This document shows, piece by piece, positions 3,596 to 25,090 of a stretch of DNA of 57,796 nt (its first letter is position 1; each line of letters begins with the position of its first letter). A program made the position numbers and the translations under genes. Below the pieces are notes generated by a model that was not told the origin of the DNA, did not search any database, and worked only from the letters and a program-made list of their open reading frames with translations. The stretch is from Thermoanaerobaculia bacterium (GTDB taxonomy: Bacteria > Acidobacteriota > Thermoanaerobaculia > Gp7-AA8). Where the stretch lies: positions 1 to 57,796 of the forward strand of contig DATEOX010000746.1 of assembly GCA_035273585.1 (NCBI GenBank). The letters are read 5' to 3'.

Positions 3596-4894
3596 ATGAC
3601 GATCATCTGCGGTACCGACTTCTCGACCGTGGCGGAGCATGCATGCCGCGTTGCCGCACTGCTGGCCGCGCAGTACGACGCGCCCCTCGTGATCGTCCAC
3701 GCGATCGCTCCCGTGACTGTGCCGCCGGCGCCCGGTCTCGACAGAATGCTCGAGGACGTGAAAGCGTCCGCCGACCGCGCCATGGCCGATCTGAAGGCCC
3801 GCCTCGGAAACGAGCGACTGAAGCTGACGACCGTGGTCAGGGCCGGCGCACCCGCCGACGTGCTGCTCGGGGAGACCGCGCACGCGCACGCGCGCCTGGT
3901 GGTGCTGGGATCGGTCGGCCAGCGCGAAAAGAGCTGGCTCCTCGGCAGTACGAGCGACGCGGTCGTGTCGCGCAGCGACGTGCCGGTACTCGTGGTGCGC
4001 GATCGCTTCCCGGCCGACTCCTGGCTCCACGAGCGCACGCCGCTCCGCGTCACCGTGGCGGCGGAGCTCGCGCCGAGCACCGATCCGGCCGTCGAGTGGG
4101 CTGCCGGTCTGACCCAGCTCGGCCCCTGCCAGTTCACCCTGGCCCACGTCTCGTGGCCCCCCGAGGAGTACGAGCGGCTCGCGATCGAAACGCCCATGCG
4201 GCTCGATCGTACGCACCCGCTGGTGGAGGAGGTGGTCCGCCGCGAGCTCGACGCCGCGGCGTCCCGACTTCGCGGCGAGGGGGAGACGAAGATCGTCGTG
4301 CAATCGAACATGGGCCGCACAGGCGAAGCGATCTCGCTCGTTGCGAAAGACGAAGGATCGGACCTGCTCGTCGTCGGCAGGGGCCGGGCCGAGGGGCGGG
4401 AATGGTGGGAAAGGTCCGTCTCGCGTGCGGTCGTGCGCAACGCACCGCTCAGCGTCGTCTGCATCCCTGATACGACGGAAGCGGAAGCATTGCCGACGCC
4501 CCAAATCCGGCGCGTCCTCGCCGCGACGGATTTTTCGCCGCTGGGCAATGCCGCGGTGGCATATGCGCTCAGCATCACGCCCGACGGCGGAGAGGTCCTG
4601 CTGGTGCACGCCATGGAGGAGTCAGCCGGCGAGGACGAGCGGAACCAATCCCGTGAACGGCTCGAGCGCCTCGCGGCCGGACAGTCAGGACGATGCCAGG
4701 TGCAGACCAACGTGCTGACCGGCGACGATCCGGCGCGCTTGATCAGCGCCTCGGCGGAACGGTTCGGTGCGGACGTGATCTGCGTCGGCTCGCGCGGCGG
4801 TTACGGCCTGGCCAAAGCGCTCCTCGGCTCCGTCTCACAAAGCGTGTTGCTGCGCAGCCGGCGTCCGGTCCTGGTGGTGCAGTCGCCCCCGTGA
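3596..4894 (+). CDS. Universal stress protein with three tandem USP domains
   Basis: ATG at 3596 follows GGAGG (3586-3590). Three repeats of the USP pattern (MTIICGTDFS...VLVV; LRVTVAAEL...VVCIP; RRVLAATDFSPLG...GSRGGYGL...PVLVV). Confidence 0.85.
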   Translation: MTIICGTDFSTVAEHACRVAALLAAQYDAPLVIVHAIAPVTVPPAPGLDRMLEDVKASADRAMADLKARLGNERLKLTTVVRAGAPADVLLGETAHAHARLVVLGSVGQREKSWLLGSTSDAVVSRSDVPVLVVRDRFPADSWLHERTPLRVTVAAELAPSTDPAVEWAAGLTQLGPCQFTLAHVSWPPEEYERLAIETPMRLDRTHPLVEEVVRRELDAAASRLRGEGETKIVVQSNMGRTGEAISLVAKDEGSDLLVVGRGRAEGREWWERSVSRAVVRNAPLSVVCIPDTTEAEALPTPQIRRVLAATDFSPLGNAAVAYALSITPDGGEVLLVHAMEESAGEDERNQSRERLERLAAGQSGRCQVQTNVLTGDDPARLISASAERFGADVICVGSRGGYGLAKALLGSVSQSVLLRSRRPVLVVQSPP

Positions 4895-4930
4895 CGCTGT
4901 ACGCGTTCCGCATCCATTTCTCGCCCTCCG

Positions 4931-5500
4931 TCAGTGCCGGTGCGCTCGCGCTTTGGCCAGCAGAACCATGACGCCGAAAATCGGATCGCGCGAGCCGGCA
5001 GCGCGGACCACCTCCCAGTTCTCGGAGATGTAGCGGTCGACGTACGCGACGACGTCGGAGAGCATGATCTTCAGATAGGGACTCGGCTCGTCGGAAGACG
5101 TTCCGAAGGCCACGAGCCGTACCTGATGTCCTACACGCGTGTCGGCCTGGCCTTTTGTGAGGAGGGACCGTGCGTAGCCCTTCGCCTCTTCCGCGCTGCA
5201 ACGGCCGAAGCGCCGCAGGATCTTGGTCACCACGTCCGGATCGGTCGCGGCCTCGTTGATCATCGCCCGCCCTTCCTTCACTTCCCCGATGATCATGTCG
5301 GCCTTGTCTCGCGGAACCTGCAGCACGGGATCGGGCGCAAAGTCCGGCTCGCCGCCGGGTAGATGATATGCGGCCATGTCCACCTCCGTCAGCGTTCGGA
5401 TCATCCCGCCGCTGATTTTGCGCACCACTGGATACTCGGTGATCGTGAAATAGCCATTGAGCTGCAGATACGCTCGAACGAGCGCCACGGCGTTGTCCAT
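4931..5500 (-). CDS. Hypothetical protein, possible PD-(D/E)xK nuclease-fold
   Basis: 189-aa ORF. N-terminal VRAYLQLNGYF, then EVDMAAY ... IGEVKEG, which resembles a D...ExK motif. The fold assignment is inference only. Confidence 0.55.
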   Translation of the reverse strand: MDNAVALVRAYLQLNGYFTITEYPVVRKISGGMIRTLTEVDMAAYHLPGGEPDFAPDPVLQVPRDKADMIIGEVKEGRAMINEAATDPDVVTKILRRFGRCSAEEAKGYARSLLTKGQADTRVGHQVRLVAFGTSSDEPSPYLKIMLSDVVAYVDRYISENWEVVRAAGSRDPIFGVMVLLAKARAHRH

Positions 5501-6813: not shown

Positions 6814-7517
6814 GAACGATCGACATCAGCGCCGACCTCGGCGAGTCCGCGCCGGATGAAGACGCGATCTGGCCCCTCATCACCTCCGCGAACGTGGCTT
6901 GCGGCGGCCACATCGGCGACGCCGCCTCAATGCGCGAGGCCGCCGAGCGCGCGCAAGTCCTCGGCGTACGCCTCGGCGCCCACCCGTCGTACCCCGACCG
7001 CGCCAACTTCGGCCGCGTGTCTCTCTCCCTCCCGCCCGACACGCTCCGCGCCTCCCTCATCTCCCAGATCGAGTCTTTGCGCGCCTTCGCCCCGTTGCAC
7101 CACGTGAAGCCGCACGGCGCCCTCTACAACGATGCGCATCGCGACTACCCCCTCGCCGAGGTCGTGATCAGCGCGTTGCAGGGGCTGGCCATCGTCTGCC
7201 CCGATCATTCGCAGATGGCCGCCGCCGCCCGCGCCGCCGGCGTCCCGGTCATCCGTGAGGCCTTCGCCGACCGCCGCTACGAGCCCGACGGCTCGCTCAT
7301 GTCGCGCAAGCTCGCGGGCTCGCTGCTGACGGTGGAGGAGGCCGCCGCCCAAGCCGCCCTCCTGGTCAGCGAGGGTGCCGTGATCGCCCGCGACGGCACC
7401 CGCGTGCCAATCGCCTTCGACACGATCTGCATCCACGCCGACATGGCCGACGCCCTCCCCCGCCTGCGCGCCGTCCATGCTAGAATCCGCAACCTTTCCC
7501 GCAGCACTGTGGTGTAG
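6810..7517 (+). CDS. pxpA: 5-oxoprolinase subunit A (LamB/YcsF family)
   Basis: GTG at 6810 overlaps the MFS stop (GTGA). VRTIDISADLGES...NVACGGHIGD...HVKPHGALYN is typical of PxpA. The upstream part of the 403-aa track ORF is an alternate frame of the MFS gene. Confidence 0.82.
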   Translation: MRTIDISADLGESAPDEDAIWPLITSANVACGGHIGDAASMREAAERAQVLGVRLGAHPSYPDRANFGRVSLSLPPDTLRASLISQIESLRAFAPLHHVKPHGALYNDAHRDYPLAEVVISALQGLAIVCPDHSQMAAAARAAGVPVIREAFADRRYEPDGSLMSRKLAGSLLTVEEAAAQAALLVSEGAVIARDGTRVPIAFDTICIHADMADALPRLRAVHARIRNLSRSTVV

Positions 7518-7583
7518 CTCAGTTGGTAGAGCGCCGGATTGTTAATCCGGTGGTCGCTGGTTCGAGTCCAGCCGCCACAGCCA
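7508..7583 (+). tRNA. tRNA-Asn (anticodon GTT), with encoded CCA
   Basis: Cloverleaf read by eye. Acceptor TGTGGTG/CGCCACA (one G-U pair), D-arm AGCTCAGTTGGTAGAGC, anticodon stem CCGGA/TCCGG with loop TTGTTAA, T-arm GCTGG-TTCGAGT-CCAGC, then G-CCA. Overlaps the pxpA stop by 10 nt. Confidence 0.92.
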
Positions 7584-7639
7584 GTTTCCTTTCAGAGACT
7601 TAGCAGAGATCCGCAGCGTCCGATCGAACGGATGCGCGA
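7539..7639 (+). repeat. Direct repeat copy A (anticodon loop to 3' end of tRNA-Asn plus 56 bp downstream); att-like
   Basis: 96/101 identical and gap-free with 15347-15447 (offset 7808 bp). Confidence 0.9.
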
Positions 7640-7800
7640 CCTTCACAACGCACGCCGCCGCGCCGGCAGCAGAAAGGTCCGCGCGCATCTCCGGCTCGCG
7701 ATCGCGCGCATCAACCAACTGCATTACATCCTGACACGTAGCGGTTCAGATGCGAGATCGCTCCGTATGCTAGGCGGCTTCCGCGCTCGCACCGGGGCGG

Positions 7801-9222
7801 TTAGTGACGGTCCCGGGGCGCGAGCGGTATTCTGACCGTGAACGTACTGCCTGCGCCGGGTGCGCTCTCCACCGTGATGCGACCGCCGTGTGCTTCGACG
7901 GCGAGCTTGCAGAAGGCGAGGCCGAGACCAGTGCCGACCCTGCTCGTAGCGTCGACCTGACCAAACTTTTCGAAGATGCGCTCGAACGCGTCGCCGGGGA
8001 TCCCGCGACCGGTGTCCGCAACCGCGAATCGGACGGACGGTCCGTCGCTGGGGCCTGCAGTGATCGTCACTGCACCGCGTGGTGTGAAACGAATCGCGTT
8101 GGCGATGAGATTCACCAGCGTCCGGCTCAACTTGTTGGCGTCGCCAGCGAAAGGCTCGAGTCCCTCTTCGAGCACCGTCACAAGCGAGGTTTCACTGGCT
8201 TCGGCGAGGGTGCGAATCTCGCTGATTGCGTTCGCAACCAGCGTCGCGGCCGAAAGTTCTTCGTATCGAAGTCCCATCATGCCGGCCTCCATCTTCTCGA
8301 CGTCCAACAGATCGTTGATCATCCCGAGCAGAGTCCGGCCGCCGCCCGCCGCGATCGCGATCATCTCGCGTTGCAAATCGTCCAGGCCGTCGCCCCGGCC
8401 GAGCATGTCCACCCCGGCGATGACGGCCGTCAGCGGCGATCGCAGGTCGTGAACGATCATGTTGCGAAGGTCATCGCGGTGCTTCTCGGCCTCCTGCAGC
8501 CGCTGGTAGTTTTCCCGCAGCTCGGCGAACAGCAGCGTCTCGCGGTCCCGGCTTCGTTTTTTCTCGAGACAGGCGCCGATGCGCGCCTGCAGGAGCGTCG
8601 GATTGAAGGGCTTGCCGAGGTAATCCTCGGCGCCCGCCGCGATACAACGAACGACGGAGTCCAGCTCATCGACTGCGGAGATCATGACCACGGGGATGTG
8701 CCGAAGGCGATCGTCGGACTTGAGTCGCCGGAGCACTTCGTAGCCGTCCGTGTCCGGCATCATGATGTCGAGAAGCACCAGATCGAACGGCGTCTCCAGC
8801 ATCACCGCCAGCGCGTCATCGCCATTGTTCGCCGTCACCACCGTGTGTCCCTGGCGGGTGAGGCGTCGCGAGAGGACCTCCCGGTTCGTAGCCTCGTCAT
8901 CGACGACGAGCAGCATTCCGGGCGCGACGGCCGGTGTCGTCGCCGCCACCGCGAACTCGACCGGGACAGCGTCCGACCGGCGTCGCGCCGATCCCGACTG
9001 GTCGCGCTCAGTCACAGAGGTGAAGTTCTGCTCGATCAGCCTAAGGATGCGATAGCCGGCCGCGCGGATTTTTTCCAGATCGCCGGTCAGTCCGTCCCGC
9101 TCCGAACCAGCTTCCTCGCAAAGCATGTCGGAGTAGCCAATGATCTGGTTCAGCGGTGTGCGCAAATCGTGGAGCAAGTCCGCGGTCACGCTCGTCCTCG
9201 CCAGTTGAGGGACGACCGTCAC
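7801..9222 (-). CDS. Hybrid sensor kinase: orphan HisKA-like box, REC, HisKA, HATPase
   Basis: GTG start overlaps the upstream stop (GTGA). HDLRTPLNQIIGYSDML; REC (LLVVDDEATNR...DLVLLDIMMPDTDGY); second H-box VHDLRSPLTAV; DTGRGIP and GTGLGLAF ATP-lid motifs. Confidence 0.85.
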   Translation of the reverse strand: MTVVPQLARTSVTADLLHDLRTPLNQIIGYSDMLCEEAGSERDGLTGDLEKIRAAGYRILRLIEQNFTSVTERDQSGSARRRSDAVPVEFAVAATTPAVAPGMLLVVDDEATNREVLSRRLTRQGHTVVTANNGDDALAVMLETPFDLVLLDIMMPDTDGYEVLRRLKSDDRLRHIPVVMISAVDELDSVVRCIAAGAEDYLGKPFNPTLLQARIGACLEKKRSRDRETLLFAELRENYQRLQEAEKHRDDLRNMIVHDLRSPLTAVIAGVDMLGRGDGLDDLQREMIAIAAGGGRTLLGMINDLLDVEKMEAGMMGLRYEELSAATLVANAISEIRTLAEASETSLVTVLEEGLEPFAGDANKLSRTLVNLIANAIRFTPRGAVTITAGPSDGPSVRFAVADTGRGIPGDAFERIFEKFGQVDATSRVGTGLGLAFCKLAVEAHGGRITVESAPGAGSTFTVRIPLAPRDRH

Positions 9223-9602
9223 GAGGCTCTCTCCGCCGTCCGCGTCAGCAGCGCGTCGATCTTGGCCATGAGGCGCGGCATGTCGATCGGTTTCGTATCG
9301 AAGTCGTCGCAACCCGCTCGCAGTGCCTTTTCGCGATCGGCGGCCATCGCGTGCGCACTGAGCGCAATCACCGGGATCTGCCGGAGTGCGGCGTCAGCTT
9401 TGAGCCGCTGCGTGGCCTGCCATCCGTCGACTGCGGGGAGAGACAGGTCCATCAGGATGAGATCCGGTCTGCGTGCGGCCGCCGCGTCGATGCCGCCTTG
9501 CCCGTCGACGGCCAGGATGATCTGGAACCCTTTTTTTTCGAGCCGGCGCGACAGCATGTCGCGGTTCATCTCGTTGTCTTCCACGATCAGGATCGTCGTC
9601 AT
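9219..9602 (-). CDS. Single-domain CheY-like response regulator
   Basis: ATG at 9602 overlaps the upstream stop (ATGA). MTTILIVEDNEMNR...DLILMDLSLPAVDGW...KPID. The longer track ORF start lies inside the upstream gene. Confidence 0.85.
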   Translation of the reverse strand: MTTILIVEDNEMNRDMLSRRLEKKGFQIILAVDGQGGIDAAAARRPDLILMDLSLPAVDGWQATQRLKADAALRQIPVIALSAHAMAADREKALRAGCDDFDTKPIDMPRLMAKIDALLTRTAERAS

Positions 9603-11662
9603 GCGCTGAGAGCGTTCTGCAGCGGCAGCCGCGGTGCATGGTTGTCGGTGAGAGTGTCGCGTACCTGCTGCAGGATCGACTCCCGCGATGCGCCCTGCTT
9701 CTGAAGGATCGCTTCGACGTACCCATCGAGCTGACGGCGGTCGTCGGCGGTGAGGTCCTGTGAAGTCATTACGATGATCGGAATCGAGGACCACTCAGGA
9801 TGCTGCCGCACTGCCGCGGCAAACTCGAACCCGTTCATGACCGGCATGATCAGATCGCAAAAAATCAGGCTCGGACGCTGGATCTCCATGCTCTTCAGAG
9901 CGGCTGCTCCATTTGCAGCTTCGGAAACCGACCACCCCTCCTTTTCCAGGATTGCTCTGGTCATGGCGCGGACGGACTTGTCGTCATCGACGAGGAGGAC
10001 GGGAGAGGGTGCATCGGGGCTCATATGTTTTTTCATGAGCTGCGACAGCCGCACGCGGTTGACCGGCTTCGTCGCATAGTCGGCGGCGCCTAGTGCGAAG
10101 CCGCGCACCGGGTCGTCGACCATCGTCAGCATGATCACAGGCACATCACGCAGCCCTGTGTCGGCTTTGAGCGCCGCCAGGACACTCCAACCGTCCAGGT
10201 CCGGCATCATTACGTCCAGCGTGATCGCCGCGGGGACGAATTGCCGGGCCAGCCGAAGACCCTCGACACCGCCGCTCGCAGTGCGCACGATGAAACCCTC
10301 TTTCCGGAGGTAGCGCTGCATCAGATCGCGCTGTACCGGATCGTCGTCGACGACGAGCACGCAGGTTCCCGGCGCAGGAAGCGAAAACGTGTCATCGGCG
10401 CCGCTCGTGTCGACGACCGCTGAGACCCGCCGGCGCTCCTCGCCGTCATGCAGTGATGGGTCAGGCACGATCGCCGGCAGCTTGATGCTGAATACACTGC
10501 CTTCGCCCGGCGCGCTGTGTACCGTGACGTCGCCGCTCATGATCTGGCAGAAGCGCCGCGTGAGAGAGAGTCCGAGGCCGGTGCCGCCGAACTTTCGCGT
10601 CGTCGACGCATCGGCCTGCGTAAACGGCTGAAACAGTCGAACGATCTGATCGGGCGTCAGTCCGATGCCGGTGTCGGAGATACGGAAGACGATCCAGTCC
10701 GCACCGTCCATGACCAGCCGCTCCGTTTCGACCTTGATCGATCCAGCATTCGTGAATTTTGCCGCGTTCGAAACGAGGTTGAAGAGGCCCTGCCGCACTT
10801 TGCTCAGGTCGGCGACCATGAAGCCAATGTCCGGCGGGCAGAGGATTTCGAGTCTGTTTCCGTTCTGCCTGGCCTGGATCGCAATCGTCGACGCCACCTC
10901 GTCGATGAGGTCCGCGATTTCGAAACGCTCCAGATGCAGCTCCATCTTGCCTGCCTCGATCTTCGAAAGGTCGAGGATCCCGTTGATGAGTCCGAGCAGA
11001 TGCTTGCCGGCCGCGGAGATCTTCGAGAGGTCCGCGCTGAACTGCGGCAGGTTCAGCTCCGCGACTTCCTCCAGCAGCATGTCCGAGTATCCGAGAATCG
11101 CGTTCAGCGGCGTCCGCAGCTCGTGGCTCATGTTTGCGAGGAAAAGACTCTTCACGCGATTTGCCGTTTCGGCAGCTTCCTTCGCCTTCGCGATTTCTCC
11201 TTCACCGCGCCGTCGATCGGTGACGTCTTCCATTGCCAGGACGAGCAGCTCTTCGTGCCGCCCCTGACGAAGCTTGCGCGCATTGAGGAGCATCACCCGT
11301 CGTCCGATCGACGGGAAGTCGTGCTCGAGCTCGAAGTCGTTGAAAACGGAGCTGGCAGGCACGATGTCTTCGAGCAGCGTGCGGAGCGCCGTGATGTTCC
11401 ACTGCCCGTTCCCGAGCTCGTAGATCAGTTGGTGTTCCGTGTCCGCCGCCGAGACATGGAACGCCTCGTAGAATGCACGGTTCGCTGCGTGAACCCGTAG
11501 TGTGCCGTCGAGGATCAGCAGCGGTTCGCGGAGCGTATCAAACAGATCCTGCGAGAATTCAGGAGCCCCGCGCGTCTCGGGCAAAGGGCCGTCGATCGGG
11601 TGGTTTGCGTCGCCAGCAGCGGGCGTACTTCGAAAGCGTTGCGGGTGGAGAGGTTCAGTCAT
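9599..11662 (-). CDS. PAS-containing hybrid histidine kinase with two C-terminal receiver domains
   Basis: 687 aa. H-box SHELRTPLNAILGYSDML; DTGIGL and GGTGLGLS; two REC domains (VLVVDDDPVQRD..., VLLVDDDKSVRA...). Confidence 0.9.
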   Translation of the reverse strand: MTEPLHPQRFRSTPAAGDANHPIDGPLPETRGAPEFSQDLFDTLREPLLILDGTLRVHAANRAFYEAFHVSAADTEHQLIYELGNGQWNITALRTLLEDIVPASSVFNDFELEHDFPSIGRRVMLLNARKLRQGRHEELLVLAMEDVTDRRRGEGEIAKAKEAAETANRVKSLFLANMSHELRTPLNAILGYSDMLLEEVAELNLPQFSADLSKISAAGKHLLGLINGILDLSKIEAGKMELHLERFEIADLIDEVASTIAIQARQNGNRLEILCPPDIGFMVADLSKVRQGLFNLVSNAAKFTNAGSIKVETERLVMDGADWIVFRISDTGIGLTPDQIVRLFQPFTQADASTTRKFGGTGLGLSLTRRFCQIMSGDVTVHSAPGEGSVFSIKLPAIVPDPSLHDGEERRRVSAVVDTSGADDTFSLPAPGTCVLVVDDDPVQRDLMQRYLRKEGFIVRTASGGVEGLRLARQFVPAAITLDVMMPDLDGWSVLAALKADTGLRDVPVIMLTMVDDPVRGFALGAADYATKPVNRVRLSQLMKKHMSPDAPSPVLLVDDDKSVRAMTRAILEKEGWSVSEAANGAAALKSMEIQRPSLIFCDLIMPVMNGFEFAAAVRQHPEWSSIPIIVMTSQDLTADDRRQLDGYVEAILQKQGASRESILQQVRDTLTDNHAPRLPLQNALSA

Positions 11663-11971
11663 TGATCGCTCCTGGTTTTCAACCGGACGCGATCGTCAGG
11701 CGCGGTCAGTCGTAGATCTTGAGACGGGAGACAACTTCGGTCCTGCAAGTACTGAGCCGTGCGGGGAAGGGCTTCGCTTTCACGCTTCGTTGTACGACCG
11801 CGATCCGGCTCGCAGTCGCGGCATTCCGCAGAGACAACGCGTCACGATTCGGAGCGGCGCCGGAACTGACGAATTTATGCCGCAGGTGAGCAGTCGGAGG
11901 CGTAAGATCCAACCACCCTCCGGGTCCTCCCGCAGCTTTGCGGTTGAAGACCTGCAGGTTCCGGAGGCTGG

Positions 11972-13443
11972 ATGCAGGACGAAATCGCACCGACTGGGAT
12001 CGCCGGCCTCGATGAAATCCTGCGAGGCGGCCTGCCCAGGCACCAGATGTACTTCGTACAGGGCGACCCGGGTTCCGGAAAGACGACGCTGTCATTTCAG
12101 TTTCTCCTGGAGGGAGTGGGTCGCGGCGAAAAAGCGCTTTATGTGACTCTGTCCGCTTCCGCGCGCGATCTGGAGCGCGTGGCGCGCTCCCATCGATGGG
12201 ACATCTCCTCCATCGACGTCTACGAGCAGTTTCGAAGTGCCAGATCCGCAGACACGACGATCTTTCGGCCATCCGAGGTCGAGCTGGCGAAGACCGTTCA
12301 AGCAATCCTGGCCGCCATTGATGATCGCCAGCCGGACCGGGTGGTGATCGACTCCCTCGGAGAGATTCGCCTTCTCGCCGAGAGCCCGCTTCGGTATCGA
12401 AAGCAACTGTTGGTTCTGAAGGACTTTTTCGCGACAGACAAATCACGGCGCTCGTACTCGATGACCACACGCTCGCGAAGGGCGACTCCGAAGTGCAGGG
12501 TCTCGCCGAGGAGGTGATCACACTCGGAGTCACGGCGCCGACATACGGCAACACGAGACGCACTCTCCAGGTGGTGAAGATGCGCGGCGTGTCGTTCCGC
12601 GGCGGCTTCCACGACTTCACGATTGAAAAGGGCGGGTTGATCGTCTTCCCACGACTGAGCGCAGGTCAGCACACGAGCAGCCGCGAGGCCGGTGCGATCA
12701 GCAGCGGCATCGCGGAGATCGACGCGCTCGTCGGCGGGGGACTGGAGCGCGGCTCCACCACAATGGCGATGGGACCGGCAGGGGTGGGCAAGTCATCGCT
12801 GGCCTTGCAGTTCGCAACGACCGCGGCGCTCGCTGGCGAGCGCGTGGTGTTTTTCATCTTCGAGGAACACCGCACCGTCTTCATGAAGTGCGCGGCATCG
12901 CTCGGCTTCGACCTTCCACCTCTGATCGAAAGCGGCCGCTTCACGGTTCAGCAGATCGATCCGGCGGAGATGTCGGCCGGCGAATTCGCCTACACCGTCC
13001 GCACGGTCGTGGAGAAAGACGAAACCTCGATGGTCATCATCGACAGCCTCAATGGCTACTTCAACGCCATGCCGGAGGAGCAGTTCCTCACGCTCCACCT
13101 GCACGAGTTCTTGAGCTATCTCAACGACGCCGCTGTCACCACGATCCTGATCGTGTCGCAGCATGGAGCACTCGGTCAGGTATCCTCGCCCGTCGACGTC
13201 AGCTACCTCGCCGACGCGGTGATTCTGCTCCGCTACTACGAGACCCGCGGCGCCTTCCGGCGCGCGATCTCGATGCTGAAGAAGCGGACGAGCGCCCATG
13301 AGCAGAGCGTTCGAGACTACCAACTGAGCTCGAACGGCGTTCGCGTCGGTGCGGCCCTTGAGGAGTTCCGCGGCATTCTCGCGGGGATGCAGTCAACGGA
13401 GGCTTCACCGCCGCATCCGAAGGCGAGAGAGAACGATCGCTAG
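11972..13443 (+). pseudogene. KaiC-like double RecA-superfamily ATPase, interrupted by a frameshift near 12430
   Basis: Two Walker A motifs (GDPGSGKTT; GPAGVGKSS). Track ORFs 11972-12517 and 12493-13443 are adjacent halves in different frames. LKDFF / RDRQITALVLDD join only if one base is added near 12430. Confidence 0.75.
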
Positions 13444-13451
13444 TGCGCGGG

Positions 13452-14648
13452 CTAGGTCGCGCCGTGAGCGACGTTCGCCAGCGGCAGCGACACGACGAAC
13501 TCCGACCCTTTGCCCGGACCTTCGCTGAACGCTTCAATCGTCCCGCCGTGACTCTCGACGAGATGCCGAACGATCGCCAGACCCAGACCCAGACCGCGCT
13601 GTGGCGTGTCGCGCGTTGAGTTCTCCTGACGATACCGCTCGAATACGTGCGGTAACAGGTCGCTCGTCATGCCGCGGCCGGTGTCACGCACGCAAATCTC
13701 TGCTGACGCGTCGGTGCGACGCAACTCGACGTGGACTGAACCCCCGCGCGGCGTGAATTTGATCGAGTTGGACAGCAGGTTCCAGCCGACCTGCTGGAGA
13801 CGAACCTCATCCGCAAAGACGAAGATTGGCTCCGCTGGAAGATCGGCCGTCAGATCGATTCCCTCCAGCTCCGACACGGCCCGAAAGGTAGCGACGACGT
13901 TGTTCACGATCGGGCTCAGTTCGACCAGCTCCTGCGCGATCATCGCCTTGCCCGCGATGATGCGCGACACATCCATCAGTCTTCGATGATGTGGGCCTGC
14001 ACCTTCGTGCTCGCCTCGATCATTGCCAATGCCTCGGCCGCCTCGGTGGCGTCGAGTTCCGCAGTTCTCAGGATCGCCACCCATCCACGGATCGCGGTCA
14101 TCGGAGAGCGTAACTCGTGCGCGAGCGTCGCCAAAAACTCGTCCTTCGCGCGATCCGCCGCCTCGTGCGCGCGCGCGATCTGCACCGCCGAGTCGGCCAG
14201 CTCATCGAGGAGGCGCTTGACCTGGTACTGCCGACGACGGCTGCGCAGAGCCGCTTCCGCCGCGCTGATGAACGTAGCGAGTCCGACCGGGCGTTCGAGA
14301 ATCAGAACCTGCACGCGTTCGCCGAGGATCTGCTTTACCTGCGCCGCTTCCTCTTCGCCGCCACTACCCAGCAGCAGAACCGGGATCTCCGACCACGGCT
14401 CCTGTGCATCGCAGAGTTCTCTCAGCGACGTGCAGCAGTCAGGGTCGTTCAACGCCTCGGAAGCGATGAGCACCATCCCAGCGCCTTTCTGCCACCTCGG
14501 CAGCCAAGGCTGAGGTGTCGTCCACGGCGACCACGACGAAGCCGTGGCCGCCGAGAGTTTGCGCGATCAGCGGCGCGTCGTCGCCCGTAGGCGCGCGTAC
14601 GAGAATGCGTTCGGTCAACGCACGGCCGGCGGTCCGTTGCTCATCCAT
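13452..14648 (-). pseudogene. Histidine kinase with receiver-like N-terminus, split by two frameshifts (about 13980 and about 14480)
   Basis: Three collinear pieces in three frames: MDEQ...ILVRAPTGDD (REC-like); H-box AHELRSPMTAIRGW; DTGRGM and GLGLGLAIV HATPase. HIIED|LMDVSRIIAGK needs one extra base. Confidence 0.75.
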
Positions 14649-14886
14649 GGTCGATCATTGCGGCTCGTCCCGGAGCTGACTGTCTCGCCGTGCAGTTGTG
14701 AGCTGACACGCGCGCAACTCCGCTGTTGGAGGTCAAGTTCCCGAGTCCATTTGGTCATGGTATGACAGCGCCCGTACGCCTTTGATCCGCGATCCGCTCT
14801 GTCGTTCTTGTTCCCAGATGCCGGGTGGCTGGTGCCGTCATCGAAGATGCTCAGCGCGAGCCACATGACTTTTAAGCGCGGCGGCC

Positions 14887-14949
14887 GCGAAAACGGCTGC
14901 CCGGGCCTCGAAAACGGCTCGCGAGACGTCAAAAACAGCTCCGGGCACA
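14887..14949. repeat. Three tandem 21-bp units with core C(G/A)AAAAC(G/A)GCT
   Basis: cgaaaacggctgcccgggcct / cgaaaacggctcgcgagacgt / caaaaacagctccgggcacat. Lies in a stretch (14650-15346) with no credible CDS. Confidence 0.7.
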
Positions 14950-15346
14950 TCGATTAGGCTTCCCCAGGCAGCTCGCCGGGGTCGATGGTGGGTGGTCCGC
15001 GGTCGTTTAGCGCTGAAGGCGTCGGGTCCGAAACCACACGGGCATCGCTTGGATCCCGCCCATGCGCGATGGAGTCCAGCGCGCCTCGTAACCGACGACG
15101 GCTCGACTCCGAGATACGTGCGCCGCGATGCCGTGGCGCTGCTCTCGTACACCACCCAATGTCACGACCTCGCCGACGTTCGGCCGGCCTACGGCCGTCA
15201 ATGATCCGCGGCAGCTACAGTTCGGCATCCGGGTGCTCTTCTAAATCTTCCTGGTGGTATGCCGCCAACGCGACCGATTGACCGCGGCCATGGGATTCAT
15301 TCCATCGGCCGCGGGATCGATCTGGAACGTCCAGCGGAGATGCCAG

Positions 15347-15447
15347 TTGTTAATCCGGTGGTCGCTCGTTCGAGTCCAGCCGCCACAGCGAATTTCCTTT
15401 CAGAGACTTAGCAGAGATCCGCAGCGTCCGATCGAATGGATGGGCGA
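15347..15447 (+). repeat. Direct repeat copy B: partial tRNA-Asn (anticodon loop to 3' end, T-stem mismatch, no CCA) plus downstream flank; att-like
   Basis: 96/101 identity with 7539-7639. No matching tRNA 5' half upstream (ggagatgccag instead of the anticodon stem). Confidence 0.9.
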
Positions 15448-15584
15448 TGAGTGACGTCGAACGGCTGGGTCAACCTACCAAACCGCCGCGCCGAACCGAG
15501 AGTGAACTGGAGCGATTCTCCTGTCGGAGCTACGGCCGGTACAACGCGTCCGCCGCCAGCGGCAGACGCATGGGAGATCCTCCG

Positions 15585-16020
15585 ATGAAAGGCCGGATTC
15601 CAGGTTTCAGCTACAACCCCAAGAAGCACGTCGCTCACTTCTCACTGTACTTCCCGAGACCAACGGCAAGGTACGTCGCGAAAAGACGGCGCACGCGGAA
15701 TCGCGCGAAGAGGCCATCCGGTTGTGGCAGGCCTTCCGCGACGAGATCAGCGGTAAGCCGCCCGAGCCCCAAGCCCGCCGCACAACCCAAGGCGATGACG
15801 TTCCGAACATTTGTCACTGAGTACCTGCAGAAGATCTGCGCACGACGCGCGGAGAAGACGCTCGCCATCTATCGCACAATCGCCACCACAAGCCTCATTC
15901 CGTACTTCGGCGAGAAGCCTCTCGACAGCATTCGCTCATGCGACGTCGAGGACTTCATGGCCTCGATGCTCACCGAGTGCAGTCCCGCGTACGTCAACAA
16001 CTGCGTCCGCATGGCGATCG
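15585..16020 (+). pseudogene. Tyrosine-recombinase (phage integrase) remnant: N-terminal arm and core-binding region only, frameshifted, catalytic domain deleted
   Basis: MKGRIPGFSYNPKKHVAHFSLYFP | ETNGKVRREKTAHAESREEAIRLWQAFRDEI (other frame) | TFRTFVTEYLQKICARRAEKTLAIYRTIATTSLIPYFGEKPLDSIRSCDVEDFM (SAM-like core-binding). No R..HxxR..Y catalytic region follows. Confidence 0.6.
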
Positions 16021-16029
16021 CCGGGAGCG

Positions 16030-16377
16030 GCAGCGAGGTGCAGGTGGCCGACGCGCGGGAGTTCTTTCGCAGTCTCGCCGTCTTCATCGCGCCGCTGTTT
16101 GCGGGCGGCGGGATGCACATCAAGGTCCTCGAGGCGATGTCCCTCGGCACGCCGATCGTCGCAACCCCCCTCGACGCGGGCGGCATCGACGCGACCCACG
16201 AACACGACCTCCTCCTCGCCGAGGATGCGGAGTCGTTCGCGGATGCGATCGTGCGCCTGCTGCGCGATCGCGAAACGGGCCCGCCGCCTCGGCCGCAACG
16301 CGCGGGCGACCGTCGCGGCGCGCTACGATCGCGACACGCTCGCGCGCGATCTGCTCAGCTTCTACGAATCGCTGTGA
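16030..16377 (+). pseudogene. Family-1 glycosyltransferase C-terminal fragment (frameshift near 16265)
   Basis: FIAPLFAGGGMHIKVLEAMSLGTPIVATPLDAGGID...LLLAEDAESFADAIVRLL, then RRLGRNARATVAARYDRDTLARDLLSFYESL in another frame. Fused in frame to the integrase remnant in track ORF 15447-16415. Confidence 0.6.
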
Positions 16378-17138
16378 GCACAGCCCGTGCGACGCGCCCC
16401 CACGCCTTGCCGTAGTGCGCCGTCCCCCACGTCAGCAGATCGTCGCGGAGCCGCACCGGATCGTGCCGCCGGATATGGTCGGGAGCGATGGTGCGGCCAT
16501 GGCCGTGCGTCACGCGCGCCTCGTCGACGATCCGCACGCGCCACCCCGCGCCGCGCGCGCGCAGACAGAATTCGAGGTCCTGACAGTAGAAGCGGTAGCG
16601 CTCGTCGAGCGGCCCCGCATCGCGCCAGACCTCCGCGCGAAGCGCCATCGCCGCGCCGCTGACCCAATCCACGTCGCTCGTCGTCCGCGCTTTCCCTCGC
16701 CGAAAGAAGCGTGCGTACTGCCCGAGCCCCGTCACCGCCGCACGATCCAGGCGAGCGTCGGCGTCGCCCACCGCTCCACTGCGGCGTGCCGTCGTCATTG
16801 AGCAACCGCGCGCCCGCAACGCCGAGCGTAGAGTCGTTCGCGAATGCCTCCTCGAACGCGCGCAACGCCTCGCCGTCGACGATGGCATCGCTGTTGAGCA
16901 GCAGAATCAACCCGCCCCCCGCCTCCCTTATCCCCCGGTTCGCCGCCACCGCAAACCCGCCATTCGCCTCCATCCGAACGACCCGCACCCAAGGCACCTC
17001 CCGCGCCAGCAGCGCCGCCGTCCCATCGCTTGAGCCGTCATCGACGACGATTACCTCCACCGCCGCGCCAACCGCACGGCAGCATTGCAAGGTCATCGCA
17101 GCGGTGTTGAAGGTGGGGATGACGACGGAGAGGCTCAT
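16355..17138 (-). pseudogene. Family-2 glycosyltransferase, frameshift near 16770
   Basis: MSLSVVIPTFNTA...VVDDGSSDGT...LLNSDAIV (GT2 N-terminus), then VDWVSGAAMALRAEVW...YCQDLEFCLRARGAGWRV in the overlapping track ORF 16355-16888. Confidence 0.7.
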
Positions 17139-17318: not shown

Positions 17319-17858
17319 ATGCGAGTCCGATCGGTCGTTTTCGTGCTGTTGTTGTGGCTTTGCGTGCCCGCGCTGCTCGCGCAGGCCGATTCTGCCGGCG
17401 GTAGCGAAGGAGCGACCGCGGGCGAGACCGTGGAGACCTCCGACAGCCGCGGCGACGTGGCGCCGAGCACGCCCGTCGCACCGGTTCCGGGCTGGGTGCA
17501 CGTCGTCCGGCTTGCGGCGTTGGCGGGCCCGATCGCGTTTCTCGCCGCGGCGTGGCTCGCCGGCGGCATCGTCCACTACCGGCTCGTCCGCCGCGAGCAC
17601 GATCTCTTTCCGGCTGTGCGCGGCACGCGAATTCCGCAGACGATGCCGATGCTGATCAGCGCGGCGCTCTTCTTCGTGCCGGTGGCGCTTTTCGTCTTTT
17701 TCGAAATCCGCTCGCGCTGGGAGATCGCGCGGCACATCGGCGGCGTCGTCGACCAGTGGCATCCGGTGACGGCCCGCGCGTGGATGACGCTCTTCGGCTG
17801 TCTGGTGCTGGCGATCACTCCGTGGCTGTTCGCGCGCCGCGCCGACTCAGTGCGTTGA
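17319..17858 (+). CDS. Cluster gene 1: exported/membrane protein (signal peptide plus about 3 TM helices)
   Basis: GAGGAG precedes the ATG. MRVRSVVFVLLLWLCVPALLAQA signal, acidic linker, three hydrophobic segments. Stop lies 11 nt before the next start. Confidence 0.6.
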   Translation: MRVRSVVFVLLLWLCVPALLAQADSAGGSEGATAGETVETSDSRGDVAPSTPVAPVPGWVHVVRLAALAGPIAFLAAAWLAGGIVHYRLVRREHDLFPAVRGTRIPQTMPMLISAALFFVPVALFVFFEIRSRWEIARHIGGVVDQWHPVTARAWMTLFGCLVLAITPWLFARRADSVR

Positions 17859-17869
17859 GGAGAGGAACG

Positions 17870-20800
17870 ATGGCGAACTACCTGATTGCGGTGGGCGGTA
17901 CCGGGCAGCACGTCGCGCTCGCGGTCGCGGATTTCATCGCGCTGGCGCACGAGATCTTCCGCACGCCGGACGAATTTCCCGCCGTGAATCTGATCCTCGT
18001 CGACGCCGACCAGGCAGGCGGCGCCGATCAGGCCTCGGCGTGGCAGGAGGCGCGGGCGCGGCTCACGACGCTCGGTCTTTTCGGCGGCGACAGTTTCGAA
18101 TGCGTGCCGCTTCCCGTGCACTCGACGTTCGCCGACACGCGGAAGATGTACGAGTTCGTGAACCGTCTCGGCGCATCGTTCGGCCCGAATGCCGCCGACG
18201 CGCTGCTCCTGCACGAACAGCGCGAGGTCGACGTCACCAGCGGTTTCTACGCGCAGCCGCGCGTCGGCGCGATGATGGCCGACTGGCTCTTCGGCGAGGT
18301 CACGCGCGGCGAGGCCGTCAACCCGCAGCTTGCGCGCATCTTCCATCTCGCCGGTGATCCCGGAAACCGCATCGTCGTCGCCGGCTCGGGCGTCGGTGGC
18401 ACCGGAGCGGGGTTCGCGCCGGCGCTCCTCCGCCGCCTGTCGTCCGCGAACGGCGCCGGCGCCAGGCTGATGGCGCTGATGGCGACGGAGTGGTTCCGGC
18501 TCGCCGGCGCCTGCTCGAACCGCCTGTCGGAGTCGGTGCAGAAGACGAACGCGAACTCCGCGCTGTGGCACGCCGCTCACTCCGGTGCGGCCGCCGGCGT
18601 GCGGACCGTCCTGTTCGGACACCCGGACGTCTCGCGCGCGCCGGAGGAAGCGTGTCAGAACGGTGCGCTGCAGGCGCGCAAGGACAACCTGACCATTCCG
18701 TATTACGCCGCGGCGGCAGCGACGACGTTCTTCGCCGGCGACAACAGCGGCGGCACGCACATTCCGGCTGCGGCGTTCTCCGGCGATGCGCTCGCGCTGC
18801 CCGGCACGTTGCGGGTCACGCCGCGTCTCACGCTGAACGATCTGGTGCGGGCGAACGTCGAGGCGGTCGGCCGGCTGACGCTCGTCTCCGAGTACCTGCG
18901 CGAGCCATACCGCGGCTTCGTCATGCCGTTCCCGACGCTCACCGGCCGCATCGACGCGCTCGATGCGACCGAGCAGCCGCGCATAGACGCGGCGCTCGCC
19001 GCTAAGCGCGCGGCGCTCGCGAACCTCGGCAAGTCCGACGAAAAGCTGCCGGTCGCGCCGCGCCATCACCGCGGCCTTCCGACGCTGCGCGGCTGGATCC
19101 GCGGCAAGGTCGACGGTCCGTACGACCTCTGGAAAGACGCGCCGGTGCCGCAGCAGACGCCGGAGAGTCGCGCCGAGACCGTCGCCGCGGACGCCGACAG
19201 TGCCACGCTCCTCATCCGCAGGATCGGGTTCACCGGCCGCGTCGTCGGCGGCAATCTCGTCCCGGTGACGCAAGCGCAAGTCCGCGATCTGGTCACCGTC
19301 GACGACGTCGACGTTTCCAAAGTTCCGGCGTCCGACGCGGCCTCGCTGACCCTCGGCCACATCTTCCGCAGTTGGGAAGCGCGCGATGTCGAAGAGAAGC
19401 GGCAGATCGCCGACTCGCTCGTCGACGACGGCCGCGCGCGCCGCCCGGTGCTCGTCTGCGGCGACCACGGCGATCGTCCGCGTCAGTGGCTGAACCGCTG
19501 GCTGCTGCTAACGAACTTCCTCGTGGAAGGCCGCTTGACGGTGGAGCAACGCCCGCTGCCGTTCACCGCCGGGAAGGTTTTGTCGTATCGCGGCACGCCG
19601 GTCGGCGAGCTGTCGCGCGAATGGATTTGCCTGCCGCTGGTGAACGGCTACTGGAACGACGAAGCGACCGTCGCGGCGATGCACAGCGTCGCGTCGCGCC
19701 TCGAGACGCTGGCCACGTGGTGCCGCAACACCGCCGCGGTCGCGCGTTGCAAATCGTCGCGCCTGCCGGCGTGGCTGGACGTGCTCTTGTTCGCGACCGC
19801 CGACTTCGCCGGTGCGGCCAAGCAGCACACCGCGCAAAGTGTTCCCGTGCAGTGGACGGACGGCAGCACCGTGTCGCTCCCTCTGCCGAACGGCGTGAGC
19901 GGCGGGAACGACTGCGTCGCCGCTACCGCCGAGGCGTTCGGCGTGCTCGTCGAGCAGCCGCCGCCCGATGCGATGTCGCCGAAAGTGCGTGAGATCGTCG
20001 ACGAGATCTCGCGCATCGCGTTGACCGTGCCGAGCCTCGACGGCGGTGAAGCGAAAAGCGTGGTGTTCTCCGAGCTGCTGTCGCCCGCCGCGCGCGACTG
20101 CCTCTTCGGCGAGGTCATCGTCGACGTCGACGCACAGAAAGCCTGGCGTCTCACGTCGTCGTCGCGCATCGTCACGTCGGTCGCCGGTGAGGTGCTGACG
20201 GAGAACGTCGGCTGCTTCCGCACCGAGCAGCGGGCGAAGTGGCTCACGCCGGTCCGACACTCCTACATTCCGCTGCTGAAGTCCGGCGAGCTCGACGTGC
20301 GCACCGACGAACGGGGACAGGAGCTGCGCGTCACGCTGTCGCTGCACGGACGAACGTTCATGGAGTCGTACGCGGCGTCGCGCGTGCGGACGATCAATCC
20401 GCTCCTCCTGCACTGGCCGTCCTCGGTCGCCAGCGCGTCGGCGGATGTGACGGTGTTGTACGACGTCGCCGGCCACGGAGCAGGTCCGCAGACGCTCGAG
20501 GTGGTGATGCACGACGCCGCCTCGCGGTCCTGGAGCCGCTCACCGCAGCTGAGCCAGCGGCATTCGCTGCACTACGTCGCGACCGGATCGCGCATCCCGT
20601 ACGGCCTGACGTTCGAGCTCGAGAAGCGCGACGTCGGCTTCCTCAAGCTCGAGCGCAATCTTCGTCCTCTCGACGACGGCACGCAGCGCGTCGCCGTCGA
20701 CTTCGGCACATCGGCGACCGTCGTGGCGATCGAGGGCGGGCCGACTAATTCGCAGGTCGTCGACCTTCTGGAACCGCGCGCCGATGCGACCGCCGAGATA

Positions 20801-24389: not shown

Positions 24390-25090
24390 TCGGGCGCGGC
24401 GTCAACTACTGGATCTCGTGGGCCGATCTCACGTTCATGCTCTTCATCGCCGGCCTTGCCACCGTGGCGATCAGCGAGGAGCATCGCGGCGACGCGGAGC
24501 GGCAGCTCGACGCCGCCCGGGTCGAGATCGCCCGGATGCGCAGGACGATGAATCCCTGCGCGAACGCGGAGTCCTTTCTGAACGGCTTCTCGGCGTGCGT
24601 CGCGCGGACCACCGGGCGCCGGCAGGCGCAGCGCAGCGGCTGTTTCGTCACCGTCGGCGAGGACGTAATCCGCTTCGCGAACGGCAAGGCCGTGCCGATC
24701 GACCCGGCGTCGGCGGATTCGGTGGCGGGCTGTCTTTACAACAATGCGCTGCAGTTCGCGGCGGCGGATCCCGGCGCGTTCGACGCGATCACCATCAACG
24801 TTGACGGACACACCGATTGCGTCGGCGATGCGAGCGACAACCAGGCGCTCGGCGCCGACCGTGCGCTGAGCGTCTACTCGCGCGTGCTGGCGCGCGCCGA
24901 GGATGACAGGAGCTGGACGACCGCCGACGCCAAGCGTGGATTCCTGAGCCGCATCGCCGTCCGCTCGTTCGGCGAGACCCGGCCGGTGGAACGGTCGCGG
25001 TGCACGACCGCGACCGGGTGGGCGGATGACCGGCGGGTCGTCGTCTCCGTGCAACTCGCGACCGAGCGCGCGAGGGACGGCCGCTCGTGA
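24386..25090 (+). CDS. Cluster gene 5: MotB-like stator/anchor protein (TM Asp plus OmpA-like peptidoglycan-binding domain)
   Basis: YWISWADLTFMLFIAGL parallels MotB WKIAYADFMTAMMAFF (Asp codon 24425-24427). NVDGHTDCVGDASDNQALGADRALSVYSRVL is the OmpA/MotB C-terminal signature (24797-24889). Confidence 0.8.
   Translation: MIGRGVNYWISWADLTFMLFIAGLATVAISEEHRGDAERQLDAARVEIARMRRTMNPCANAESFLNGFSACVARTTGRRQAQRSGCFVTVGEDVIRFANGKAVPIDPASADSVAGCLYNNALQFAAADPGAFDAITINVDGHTDCVGDASDNQALGADRALSVYSRVLARAEDDRSWTTADAKRGFLSRIAVRSFGETRPVERSRCTTATGWADDRRVVVSVQLATERARDGRS

What the first reader, a model, noticed from the sequence alone, without database searches (positions are those of the whole stretch)
7539..15447. 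101-bp direct repeat of the tRNA-Asn 3' half brackets a 7.7-kb signalling islet, and the distal copy is followed by an integrase remnant
7539-7639 (anticodon loop to CCA of the intact tRNA-Asn plus 56 bp) and 15347-15447 are 96/101 identical without gaps. Identity starts exactly in the anticodon loop, a classic integrase crossover location. The distal copy lacks the tRNA 5' half and has a T-stem mismatch. The bracketed DNA carries a three-gene hybrid-kinase operon plus a disrupted KaiC-like gene and a disrupted kinase, but no integrase. An integrase N-terminal remnant starts 138 bp to the right of the distal copy. The best reading is tandem or successive integrations at tRNA-Asn. The older element, to the right of 15447, may have delivered the 17-36 kb block and has since lost its recombinase.
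Basis: partly seen in the sequence, partly recalled or inferred. Interest (0 to 1): 0.6.

Follow-up and report, generated by a model that had tools for sequence, protein, structure and literature searches.

The report
Decayed stacked islands at tRNA-Asn
Two mobile DNA islands were inserted one behind the other into an asparagine tRNA gene and have since lost their integrase, leaving a horizontally acquired signalling gene cluster fixed in the chromosome; this is a well-known kind of genomic scar.

Summary
tRNA-Asn(GTT) lies at 7508-7583. Bases 7539-7639 recur at 15347-15447 (96/101), starting at the first base of the anticodon loop. There is no third copy in the window or the assembly.

The repeat is the 45-bp att core plus 56 bp of an element-borne arm. 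In more than ten related genomes this arm follows tRNA-Asn wherever a tyrosine integrase is adjacent. Stacked arrays with half-tRNA copies occur in four of the ten further integrase loci I fetched.

The 7.7-kb islet has no integrase, and its proximal arm breaks off where the family consensus continues, which marks a deletion scar. Its cargo is foreign:
- GC is 63.1% against 67.4% for the genome.
- The kinase operon is 93%, 82% and 80% identical to copies in three other genera whose flanks are 74-76% identical.
- Both same-genus genomes lack it.

The three-gene operon is intact. The KaiC-like gene and the kinase are frameshifted.

The second element is reduced to an integrase N-terminus (15585-16010) fused in frame to a glycosyltransferase fragment.

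The claim that this element delivered the 17-36 kb block is not supported.

The scan has noted stacked islands at tRNA-Asn before, on other DNA, with serine integrases.

The parts
7508..7583 (+). Intact tRNA-Asn(GTT) with encoded CCA. This is the regenerated integration target (attL side).
   Evidence: ARAGORN. The MFS-LamB/YcsF-tRNA-Asn order is conserved in several genera of the family.
7539..7583 (+). Proximal copy of the 45-bp att core, running from the anticodon loop to CCA.
   Evidence: The same 45-bp block bounds islands in G010, G051, G083, G054, G132 and G136.
7584..7639 (+). Proximal 56-bp stub of the element-borne arm (P'): GTTTCCTTTCAGAGACTTAGCAGAGA...GCGCGAC. It breaks off at 7639/7640.
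   Evidence: The motif follows tRNA-Asn wherever the integrase is adjacent. The family consensus continues ...GCGCGAT-gtgtagagt, whereas this copy diverges at 7640.
7640..7800 (.). 161-bp unique spacer between the arm stub and the stop codon of the first kinase. Homology with G108 begins only at 7796.
   Evidence: No match in the assembly or in the fetched loci.
7801..9312 (-). Hybrid kinase (REC-HisKA-HATPase), intact.
   Evidence: Pfam. Full-length alignment to G014 (78% aa) and G020 (76% aa).
9219..9602 (-). Single-domain response regulator, intact.
   Evidence: Pfam. 87% and 84% aa identity to G014 and G020.
9599..11662 (-). Hybrid kinase (PAS-HisKA-HATPase-REC-REC), intact.
   Evidence: Pfam. 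82% and 80% aa identity to G014 and G020. 93% nt identity to G108.
11972..13443 (+). KaiC-like ATPase pseudogene with a 1-nt deletion near 12425, in a T-run.
   Evidence: Pfam KaiC. The gap is seen against G108, C558 and G017. The G108 copy is one open frame. The start codon was located.
13452..14648 (-). Histidine kinase pseudogene with frameshifts near 13979 and 14495. An intact 84% paralogue lies on G000:C558.
   Evidence: Pfam HisKA and HATPase on two frames. Alignments to C558 and G017.
14649..15346 (.). Right end of the islet (presumed P arm). It has no recognisable gene and ends exactly at the core boundary.
   Evidence: No Pfam hit for its ORFs. Only a 54-bp 81% match to C631.
15347..15391 (+). 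Distal copy of the 45-bp core. It lacks the tRNA 5' half and has mismatches in the T-stem and the CCA, so it is not a tRNA gene.
15392..15447 (+). Distal 56-bp P' arm, continuous with the sequence that leads to the integrase start.
15585..16010 (+). Tyrosine-integrase remnant. It keeps the N-terminal SAM-like DNA-binding part (equivalent to residues 8-151 of 419) and has lost the catalytic domain.
   Evidence: Pfam PF14659 only. 55% aa identity to the full-length G010 integrase, which carries PF00589.
16011..16415 (+). C-terminal third of a GT1 glycosyltransferase (equivalent to residue 247 onward of 376), fused in frame to the integrase stub. This is the right breakpoint of a deletion.
   Evidence: Pfam. 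blastp against the G001 GT1. GC jumps from 61.3% to 70.1% at the junction.
16362..17138 (-). GT2 glycosyltransferase, the conserved partner of GT1 in relatives. It is resident-type DNA and marks where the island remains end.
   Evidence: Pfam. GT2 homologues lie at other loci in G001, G014 and G010 at 69-70% DNA identity. GT1 lies beside GT2 in G001:C72.

Best explanation
The locus is a decayed tandem array of two related integrative elements at the 3' half of tRNA-Asn.

How the array formed (inferred from the anatomy and from intact relatives):
- A family-specific tyrosine integrase recombines an element attP with the tRNA. The crossover lies at the left edge of a 45-bp identity block, from the anticodon loop to CCA.
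- The element supplies a new tRNA 3' half plus its own P' arm. The old 3' half is pushed to the far end.
- A second, closely related element then used one of the two resulting cores.
- The result is tRNA - P' - element B - core - P' - integrase of element A.

Two deletions then froze the array:
- One runs from 56 bp into B's P' arm and removed B's integrase. It left a 7.7-kb integrase-less islet, comparable to a CIME.
- The other runs from codon 151-equivalent of A's integrase into a chromosomal GT1 gene. It removed the rest of A and its distal att site.

The cargo that survives is a horizontally spread phosphorelay cluster. The three-gene hybrid-kinase operon is still intact. Its KaiC-like ATPase and partner kinase have been inactivated by frameshifts.

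No cognate intact integrase is present in the assembly, so the array is probably immobile now.

Shown directly: the repeat, the boundaries, the domain content, the foreignness of the cargo, and the recurrence of the att architecture. Inferred: the order of events and the deletions.
For: 1. Repeat and boundaries.

2. The intact comparator is in G010: tRNA-Asn, P' arm, a 419-aa integrase with PF00589, then a 45-bp direct repeat 12.6 kb away with the same left boundary.

3. The same locus, LamB-tRNA-Asn, carries a single 16.4-kb element in G051.

4. The P' motif ATTTCCTTTCAGAGACTTAGC follows tRNA-Asn or a half copy next to the integrase in G006, G010, G051, G054, G074, G083, G085, G132, G133 and G136. 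It is not found after the tRNA where no integrase is present, in G014 (immediately after), G020, G022, G004 and G108.

5. Arrays occur elsewhere:
- G054 has 4 copies.
- G132 has 3 copies.
- G136 has 2 copies.
- G133 reads LamB-tRNA-Asn-[integrase pseudogene + 7.6 kb]-core-P'-integrase, which is nearly the window's architecture.

6. The proximal arm diverges at 7640, exactly where the family consensus goes on. G001, of the same genus, keeps a 17-bp stub. G014 keeps an 18-bp stub abutting the same operon.

7. The cargo is foreign:
- Islet GC is 63.1%, the 7th percentile of 7.7-kb windows of the genome.
- The operon is 93% identical to G108, 82% to G014 and 80% to G020, but 69-73% to about 47 other family genomes. 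It was not found in both same-genus genomes.
- The flanks are 87% identical within a genus and 72-77% between genera.
- G014 against same-genus G052 is only 74% for the operon.
- In G108 the segment sits between DNA that matches G000 at only 64-76.5%.

8. The integrase stub and GT1 fusion are shown.

9. The junction sequences are unique in the assembly.
Against: - No intact element carrying this operon together with an integrase was found, so 'cargo' rests on the att bracket, composition and discordant identities.
- In G014 and G020 the operon lies beside tRNA-Asn without a distal half copy within 3.1 kb and 11.8 kb respectively. In G108 it lies beside tRNA-Arg. The unit that moves is therefore not defined.
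- The P arm at 14649-15346 resembles no other element's P arm.
The joins and the single-base frameshifts are therefore unverified.
Confidence: 0.8

Rival explanations
1. Chimeric MAG contig. The assembler walked from the islet of one strain through the shared core and arm into the integrase-stub locus of another strain, or mis-joined at 16011. The two halves would then never be adjacent in one genome.
For: The assembly is fragmented (773 contigs, 80.75% complete, 2.54% contamination). The repeat contains a 44-nt exact block. GC steps sharply at 16011. Reads could not be checked.
Against: - Both copies keep private mismatches and unique flanks on both sides.
- No other contig shares the junction sequences, and no second GT1 or integrase copy exists.
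- The same stacked architecture is seen in independent assemblies, including a near-complete 5-Mb contig in G136.
- Even under this rival, each strain would still carry an att-bounded element at tRNA-Asn.
Confidence: 0.07
2. The kinase cluster is ancestral chromosomal DNA next to tRNA-Asn, as in G014 and G020. The distal copy would then come from some other event, for example a second tRNA-Asn gene that lost its 5' half, or a local duplication.
For: Two other genera have the same operon in the same orientation after the same LamB-tRNA-Asn. The protein identities of operon and flanks overlap there: 76-87% against 64-79%.
Against: - The left edge of the distal copy coincides to the base with the core boundary used by more than ten independent elements, and the sequence to its left is unrelated to a tRNA 5' half.
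- The proximal tRNA is followed by an element-type arm.
- Same-genus genomes lack the operon.
- A different genus has it at 93% at another locus.
- Within genus g13, G014 and G052 carry versions only 74% alike.
Confidence: 0.06
3. One element, not two acquisitions. A single element became a tandem duplicate, either by self-integration or by unequal crossing-over between its att sites, and each copy then lost a different part. Islet and stub would then be remnants of the same element type, and the operon would also have been cargo of the right-hand copy. This is a variant of the best explanation.
For: The two core-plus-arm copies are 96/101 identical. Arms of elements in other genomes mostly differ after about 27 nt, for example in G010 and G006.
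Against: An arm that reads nearly the same by eye also occurs in another genus, G132, so near-identical arms do not require duplication in situ. Nothing of the right-hand copy's cargo survives for comparison.
Confidence: 0.25

Closest known systems
tRNA-gene (tDNA) genomic islands integrated by tyrosine integrases with an anticodon-loop ('A' site) crossover, as catalogued by Islander (PMC4383910; sublocation classes from Williams 2002, cited there)
   Same: - A regenerated intact tRNA at one end and a displaced 3' fragment in direct orientation at the other.
- Identity starts in the anticodon loop.
- An integrase of the Phage_integrase type lies next to the tRNA in intact relatives.
- The cargo is foreign.
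   Different: The islet has no integrase of its own. The neighbouring integrase is a stub without a catalytic domain. The far att site of the second element is gone.
CIMEs and site-specific accretion (Pavlovic 2004 and Bellanger 2011 as summarised in PMC5704250): decayed elements that keep attL and attR and sit in tandem with a related element
   Same: An integrase-less unit is flanked by both att sites and stacked with a related element at the same target. It is explained by integration, decay and a second integration.
   Different: No conjugation or mobilisation genes are detectable in either unit. Cis-mobilisation is untested, and it is implausible now because the neighbour's integrase is truncated. 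The host is an uncultured soil-type lineage rather than streptococci.
Asparagine tDNA integration hotspots of Enterobacteria (Klebsiella asn tDNAs, PMC4891358; title and abstract only were read)
   Same: tRNA-Asn genes act as recurrent landing sites for different islands.
   Different: The host phylum and the cargo are unrelated. I did not compare the integrases. This is a resemblance only.

Membership tests
tDNA-integrated genomic island (Islander criteria, PMC4383910) | An intact tRNA gene at one end and a cognate tDNA 3' fragment in the same orientation at the other | tested here: met
   tRNA-Asn at 7508-7583. The fragment at 15347-15391 is a direct repeat with 43/45 identity.
tDNA-integrated genomic island (Islander criteria, PMC4383910) | A tyrosine integrase gene (PF00589) inside the island | tested here: not met
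   No integrase match lies between 7640 and 15346. The only match in the window is the stub at 15576-16016, outside the bracket, and it lacks PF00589.
tDNA-integrated genomic island (Islander criteria, PMC4383910) | The crossover sublocation is one of the known tRNA subsites (A: anticodon loop) | tested here: met
   Identity begins at tRNA position 32 in the window and in G010, G051, G054, G083, G132 and G136. In G010 the T-stems of attL and attR differ, which places the exchange 5' of the T-stem.
Tandem island array (Islander resolution rule) | [quoted passage not shown] | tested here: not met
   The islet has a fragment but no integrase. The second unit has an integrase stub but no distal fragment in the window or the assembly. 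The locus is the wreck of such an array.
CIME (cis-mobilizable element; PMC5704250) | [quoted passage not shown] | tested here: met
   Both cores are present. Pfam finds only signalling genes and pseudogenes between them.
CIME (cis-mobilizable element; PMC5704250) | Derived by decay from an ICE or IME | tested here: inconclusive
   The truncated P' arm at 7639/7640 points to a deletion that took out the integrase. However, no conjugation or mobilisation gene is known for any member of this element family.
CIME (cis-mobilizable element; PMC5704250) | Can be excised or mobilised in cis by the integrase of an accreted neighbour | not testable with these tools
   This needs excision PCR or read evidence. 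The neighbour's integrase lacks its catalytic domain.
Tyrosine recombinase (Phage_integrase, PF00589) for the ORF at 15585-16010 | An N-terminal SAM-like or core-binding domain | tested here: met
   PF14659, E = 3.5e-9. 55% identity to residues 8-151 of the G010 integrase.
Tyrosine recombinase (Phage_integrase, PF00589) for the ORF at 15585-16010 | A C-terminal catalytic domain | tested here: not met
   Homology ends at residue 151 of 419. The sequence that follows is GT1.

The most novel reading that the evidence does not exclude
The 7.7-kb islet, or its 5.6-kb operon-plus-KaiC core, may be a discrete integrase-less cassette. Such a cassette would travel between genera of this uncultured family by borrowing, in trans or in cis, the tRNA-Asn integrases of resident elements. 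It would spread a KaiC-coupled phosphorelay as a mobile signalling module.
Probability: 0.25. Interest if true: 0.4.

Novelty: new member of a known kind. Interest (0 to 1): 0.25.

Why it matters
It documents, for a poorly known and mostly uncultured bacterial family, several points:
- A tyrosine-integrase element family is specific to the anticodon-loop site of tRNA-Asn, with a recognisable arm motif.
- Stacking and decay of these elements are frequent.
- A multi-kinase, KaiC-linked signalling cluster has moved between genera and is partly decaying after arrival.

This helps annotation by marking which genes near this tRNA are accessory, and it gives a model for how regulatory modules spread. 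It does not change the current understanding of how genomic islands work.

Tried and rejected
1. Third att copy. I scanned the window (up to 11 mismatches in 45) and the whole assembly (up to 8 mismatches). None was found.

2. An intact element carrying the operon.
- None of 12 loci with integrases of this clade holds it.
- Two exact or degenerate DNA pattern scans of metagenome contigs found nothing.
- The genome-contig scan with the HK2 protein was swamped by generic kinase motifs and gave only distant hits of 59% or less.

4. Homology of the islet's right end (14649-15346) and of the 7640-7800 spacer. Nothing informative was found.

5. Gene X, which lies between tRNA-Asn and the operon in G020. 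It has no relative in the window or in the other loci.

6. The original right flank. The DNA after tRNA-Asn in G001 (a RibD_C gene) is not in the window. One of its genes matches G000:C606 at 81%, which says little.

7. Delivery of the 17-36 kb block by the element. Rejected as unsupported.

8. GC3 comparison. Islet genes have GC3 of 0.72-0.83 against a genome mean of 0.90. My reference ORF set was selected with a model trained on high-GC3 ORFs, so I rely on the unbiased window-GC percentile instead.


Full report
**Observation**

ARAGORN finds a single tRNA in the window, tRNA-Asn(GTT) at 7508-7583 on the + strand. The stretch 7539-7639 recurs at 15347-15447 with 96 of 101 bases identical and no gaps. 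The mismatches are at 7559 (T-stem), 7582 (in the CCA), 7584, 7629 and 7635, and the longest exact block is 44 nt. All other direct repeats in the window are at most 41 nt at 81% or less. Identity begins at tRNA position 32, the first base of the anticodon loop. The DNA to the left of the distal copy is unrelated to a tRNA 5' half. No third copy exists in the window (up to 11 mismatches in 45) or in the whole assembly (up to 8 mismatches). The window is the complete contig C746 of a 773-contig, 80.75%-complete MAG.

**Gene content**

Left of the tRNA lie an MFS transporter and a LamB/YcsF-family gene. Between the repeats lie:
- REC-HisKA-HATPase, 7801-9312 (-).
- A single REC, 9219-9602 (-).
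- PAS-HisKA-HATPase-REC-REC, 9599-11662 (-).
- A KaiC-like gene, 11972-13443 (+).
- A histidine kinase, 13452-14648 (-).

The three-gene operon aligns full-length with relatives. The KaiC-like gene has a 1-nt deletion near 12425 relative to G108, to the paralogue on G000:C558 and to G017. The kinase has frameshifts near 13979 and 14495. The G108 KaiC is a single open frame. There is no integrase inside the bracket.

The ORF at 15447-16415 is a chimera:
- From the ATG at 15585 to nt 16010 it matches residues 8-151 of a 419-aa tyrosine integrase (55% identity; Pfam PF14659 only).
- From 16011 it continues in frame as residue 247 onward of a 376-aa GT1 glycosyltransferase.

A GT2 gene follows at 16362-17138 (-).

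**What the repeat is**

In G010, tRNA-Asn is followed by the sequence ATTTCCTTTCAGAGACTTAGCAGAGA... and then by a full-length integrase with PF00589. A 45-bp copy of the tRNA 3' half lies 12.6 kb away, with exactly the same left boundary as in the window. The 45 bp is therefore the att core. The sequence after the CCA is not repeated at the far end in G010, so it is element-borne (the P' arm).

A search of 124 family genomes with that integrase found a clade of orthologues at 68-88% identity. I fetched ten more such loci. In nine of them a tRNA-Asn or a half copy sits next to the integrase, followed by the same arm motif in eight and by a degenerate form in G124. In L032 (G107) neither was found within the stretch fetched. 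At the same chromosomal locus as the window (LamB-tRNA-Asn), G051 carries one 16.4-kb element with an integrase and a distal core copy.

Where no integrase is adjacent (G014, G020, G022, G004, G108), the arm motif does not follow the tRNA. Both window copies carry 56 bp of this arm. The 101-bp repeat is thus core (45 bp) plus arm (56 bp).

**Stacking and decay**

Half-tRNA copies preceded by non-tRNA sequence and followed by arm plus integrase, exactly like the window's distal copy, occur in G136 and G132.
- G054 has four core copies in 12 kb, with one frameshifted integrase and two integrase-less islets of 2.1 and 3.8 kb.
- G132 has three copies.
- G133 reads LamB - tRNA-Asn - integrase pseudogene - 7.6 kb - core - arm - integrase.

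The cargo of these elements is diverse: TIR-WD40, an FRG-domain protein, an ECF sigma factor, a Ser/Thr kinase and an ORC/Cdc6-like ATPase.

The family consensus of the arm runs on after ...GCGCGAT as gtgtagagt and similar. The window's proximal copy diverges right there, at 7640. I read this as the left breakpoint of a deletion that removed the islet's own integrase. Comparable stubs exist in G001 (same genus; 17 bp, then a RibD_C gene) and in G014, where an 18-bp stub abuts the stop codon of the same kinase operon behind a 1.2-kb low-GC insertion.

**Is the islet foreign?**

- The genome has 67.4% GC. The islet has 63.1%, the 7th percentile of 7.7-kb windows. The left flank has 67.0%.
- The operon is found in about 50 of 124 family genomes at a uniform 69-73% DNA identity. 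Three genomes of other genera are much closer: G108 at 93%, G014 at 82% and G020 at 80%. Both genomes of the window's own genus lack it.
- The MFS-LamB flank is 87% identical within a genus and 72-77% between genera.
- G014 and its congener G052 carry operons only 74% alike, whereas G014 is 82% identical to G000, G108 and G020.
- In G108 the 92-93% segment (window 7796-13442, operon plus KaiC in the same arrangement) lies beside a tRNA-Arg. It sits between DNA that matches G000 at only 64-76.5%.
- In the resident-type clusters (G017, G117) the operon and KaiC are co-directional. In G000 and G108 they are divergent.

These discordances indicate horizontal spread of this version of the cluster. 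In G014 and G020 it also lies after LamB-tRNA-Asn, with three different junctions to the tRNA in the three genomes.

**Mechanism**

The integrase exchanges strands at the anticodon-loop end of the 45-bp core. This is the 'A' subsite of the Islander classification (PMC4383910). In G010 the T-stems of attL and attR differ (GCAGG/CCTGC against GCTGG/CCAGC), which places the exchange 5' of the T-stem.

A second element can use either core left by the first. Both orders give tRNA - P' - B - core - P' - int(A), so which element is older cannot be decided. Two deletions then produced the present state:
- One runs from 7639/7640 into element B.
- The other runs from integrase codon 151-equivalent into GT1 at 16010/16011.

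This is the integration, decay and accretion path described for CIMEs (PMC5704250). The assembly holds no intact integrase of this clade; the only other hit is a 32% relative on C483. The array is therefore probably fixed.

**The right-hand claim**

GT2 homologues at 69-70% DNA identity lie at loci away from tRNA-Asn in G001, G014 and G010, and GT1 lies beside GT2 in G001:C72. Homology to these loci ends at 17132.

The 17-36 kb block is two cassettes with separate, patchy distributions. Window 17488-26560 is found in four genomes of one genus. Window 26613-36510 is found in eight other genomes. Together that is 12 of 123 family genomes. In four of those genomes no integrase of this clade lies within about 7-13 kb. 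Earlier notes of this scan describe these cassettes as self-contained units. Nothing ties them to the integrase stub.

**Assembly caveat**

All junction sequences are unique in the assembly, and there is no second GT1 or integrase copy that could have seeded a misjoin. The architecture recurs in independent assemblies. I put a chimera at about 7%.

**Verdict**

The interpretation of stacked integrations at tRNA-Asn is supported, and it is sharpened to an integrase-less islet plus an integrase stub, both produced by deletion. The suggestion that the stub's element delivered the 17-36 kb block is not supported. This is a new member of a well-known kind. The scan has reported stacked, decayed islands at tRNA-Asn before on other DNA, but there with serine integrases acting at the very 3' end of the tRNA. 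Here the enzyme is a classical tyrosine integrase acting at the anticodon loop.

Noticed in passing
window 39072-39140 (-): An orphan 3' half of tRNA-Asp(GTC) lies here, with a downstream flank shared with G001 and G020 at 79-93%. To its right lie a MazE/PIN toxin-antitoxin pair (39369-40065) and an 80-aa cytochrome P450 fragment (40661-40903). No intact tRNA-Asp is in the window.
   Followed up: partly
G000:C558:3331-6041 (L026 3425-4822 and 4833-6032): An intact paralogous KaiC-like and kinase pair, 84% identical to the window's two pseudogenes. Loss of the islet copies may be tolerated because this pair exists.
   Followed up: partly
window 11824-11863 and L026 3224-3263: A 40-bp stretch upstream of the KaiC-like gene matches the region upstream of the C558 paralogue at 95%, but in inverted orientation. 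It could be a shared regulatory palindrome.
   Followed up: no
L020 (G014:C650) 3921-5122: A 1.2-kb low-GC insertion encodes a roughly 313-aa secreted-looking protein. It sits between tRNA-Asn and an 18-bp arm stub, preceded by what looks like the last ~14 nt of a core copy. This may be a further decayed unit in that genome.
   Followed up: partly
L022 (G010:C12) and G010:C12:1971-3846: In G010 the MFS-LamB genes and the tRNA-Asn with its island lie about 29 kb apart and in opposite orientation on one contig. This suggests an inversion at this locus.
   Followed up: no
L053 (G106:C4) 11189-12271: In G106 the relative of the 17.5-26.6 kb cassette starts about 850 bp after a tRNA-Arg/tRNA-Thr pair. 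That cassette may also sit at a tRNA-linked variable site.
   Followed up: no
G000:C349:4043-8034: Two tRNA-Asp(GTC) genes lie 3.9 kb apart on the same strand.
   Followed up: no
G000:C671:2488-2563: A second tRNA-Asn(GTT) gene, about 81% identical to the window's, with no half copies nearby in the assembly.
   Followed up: no
window 15447-16415: The integrase stub and the GT1 fragment form one 322-codon open frame. A chimeric protein could in principle be made, but no function is implied.
   Followed up: partly
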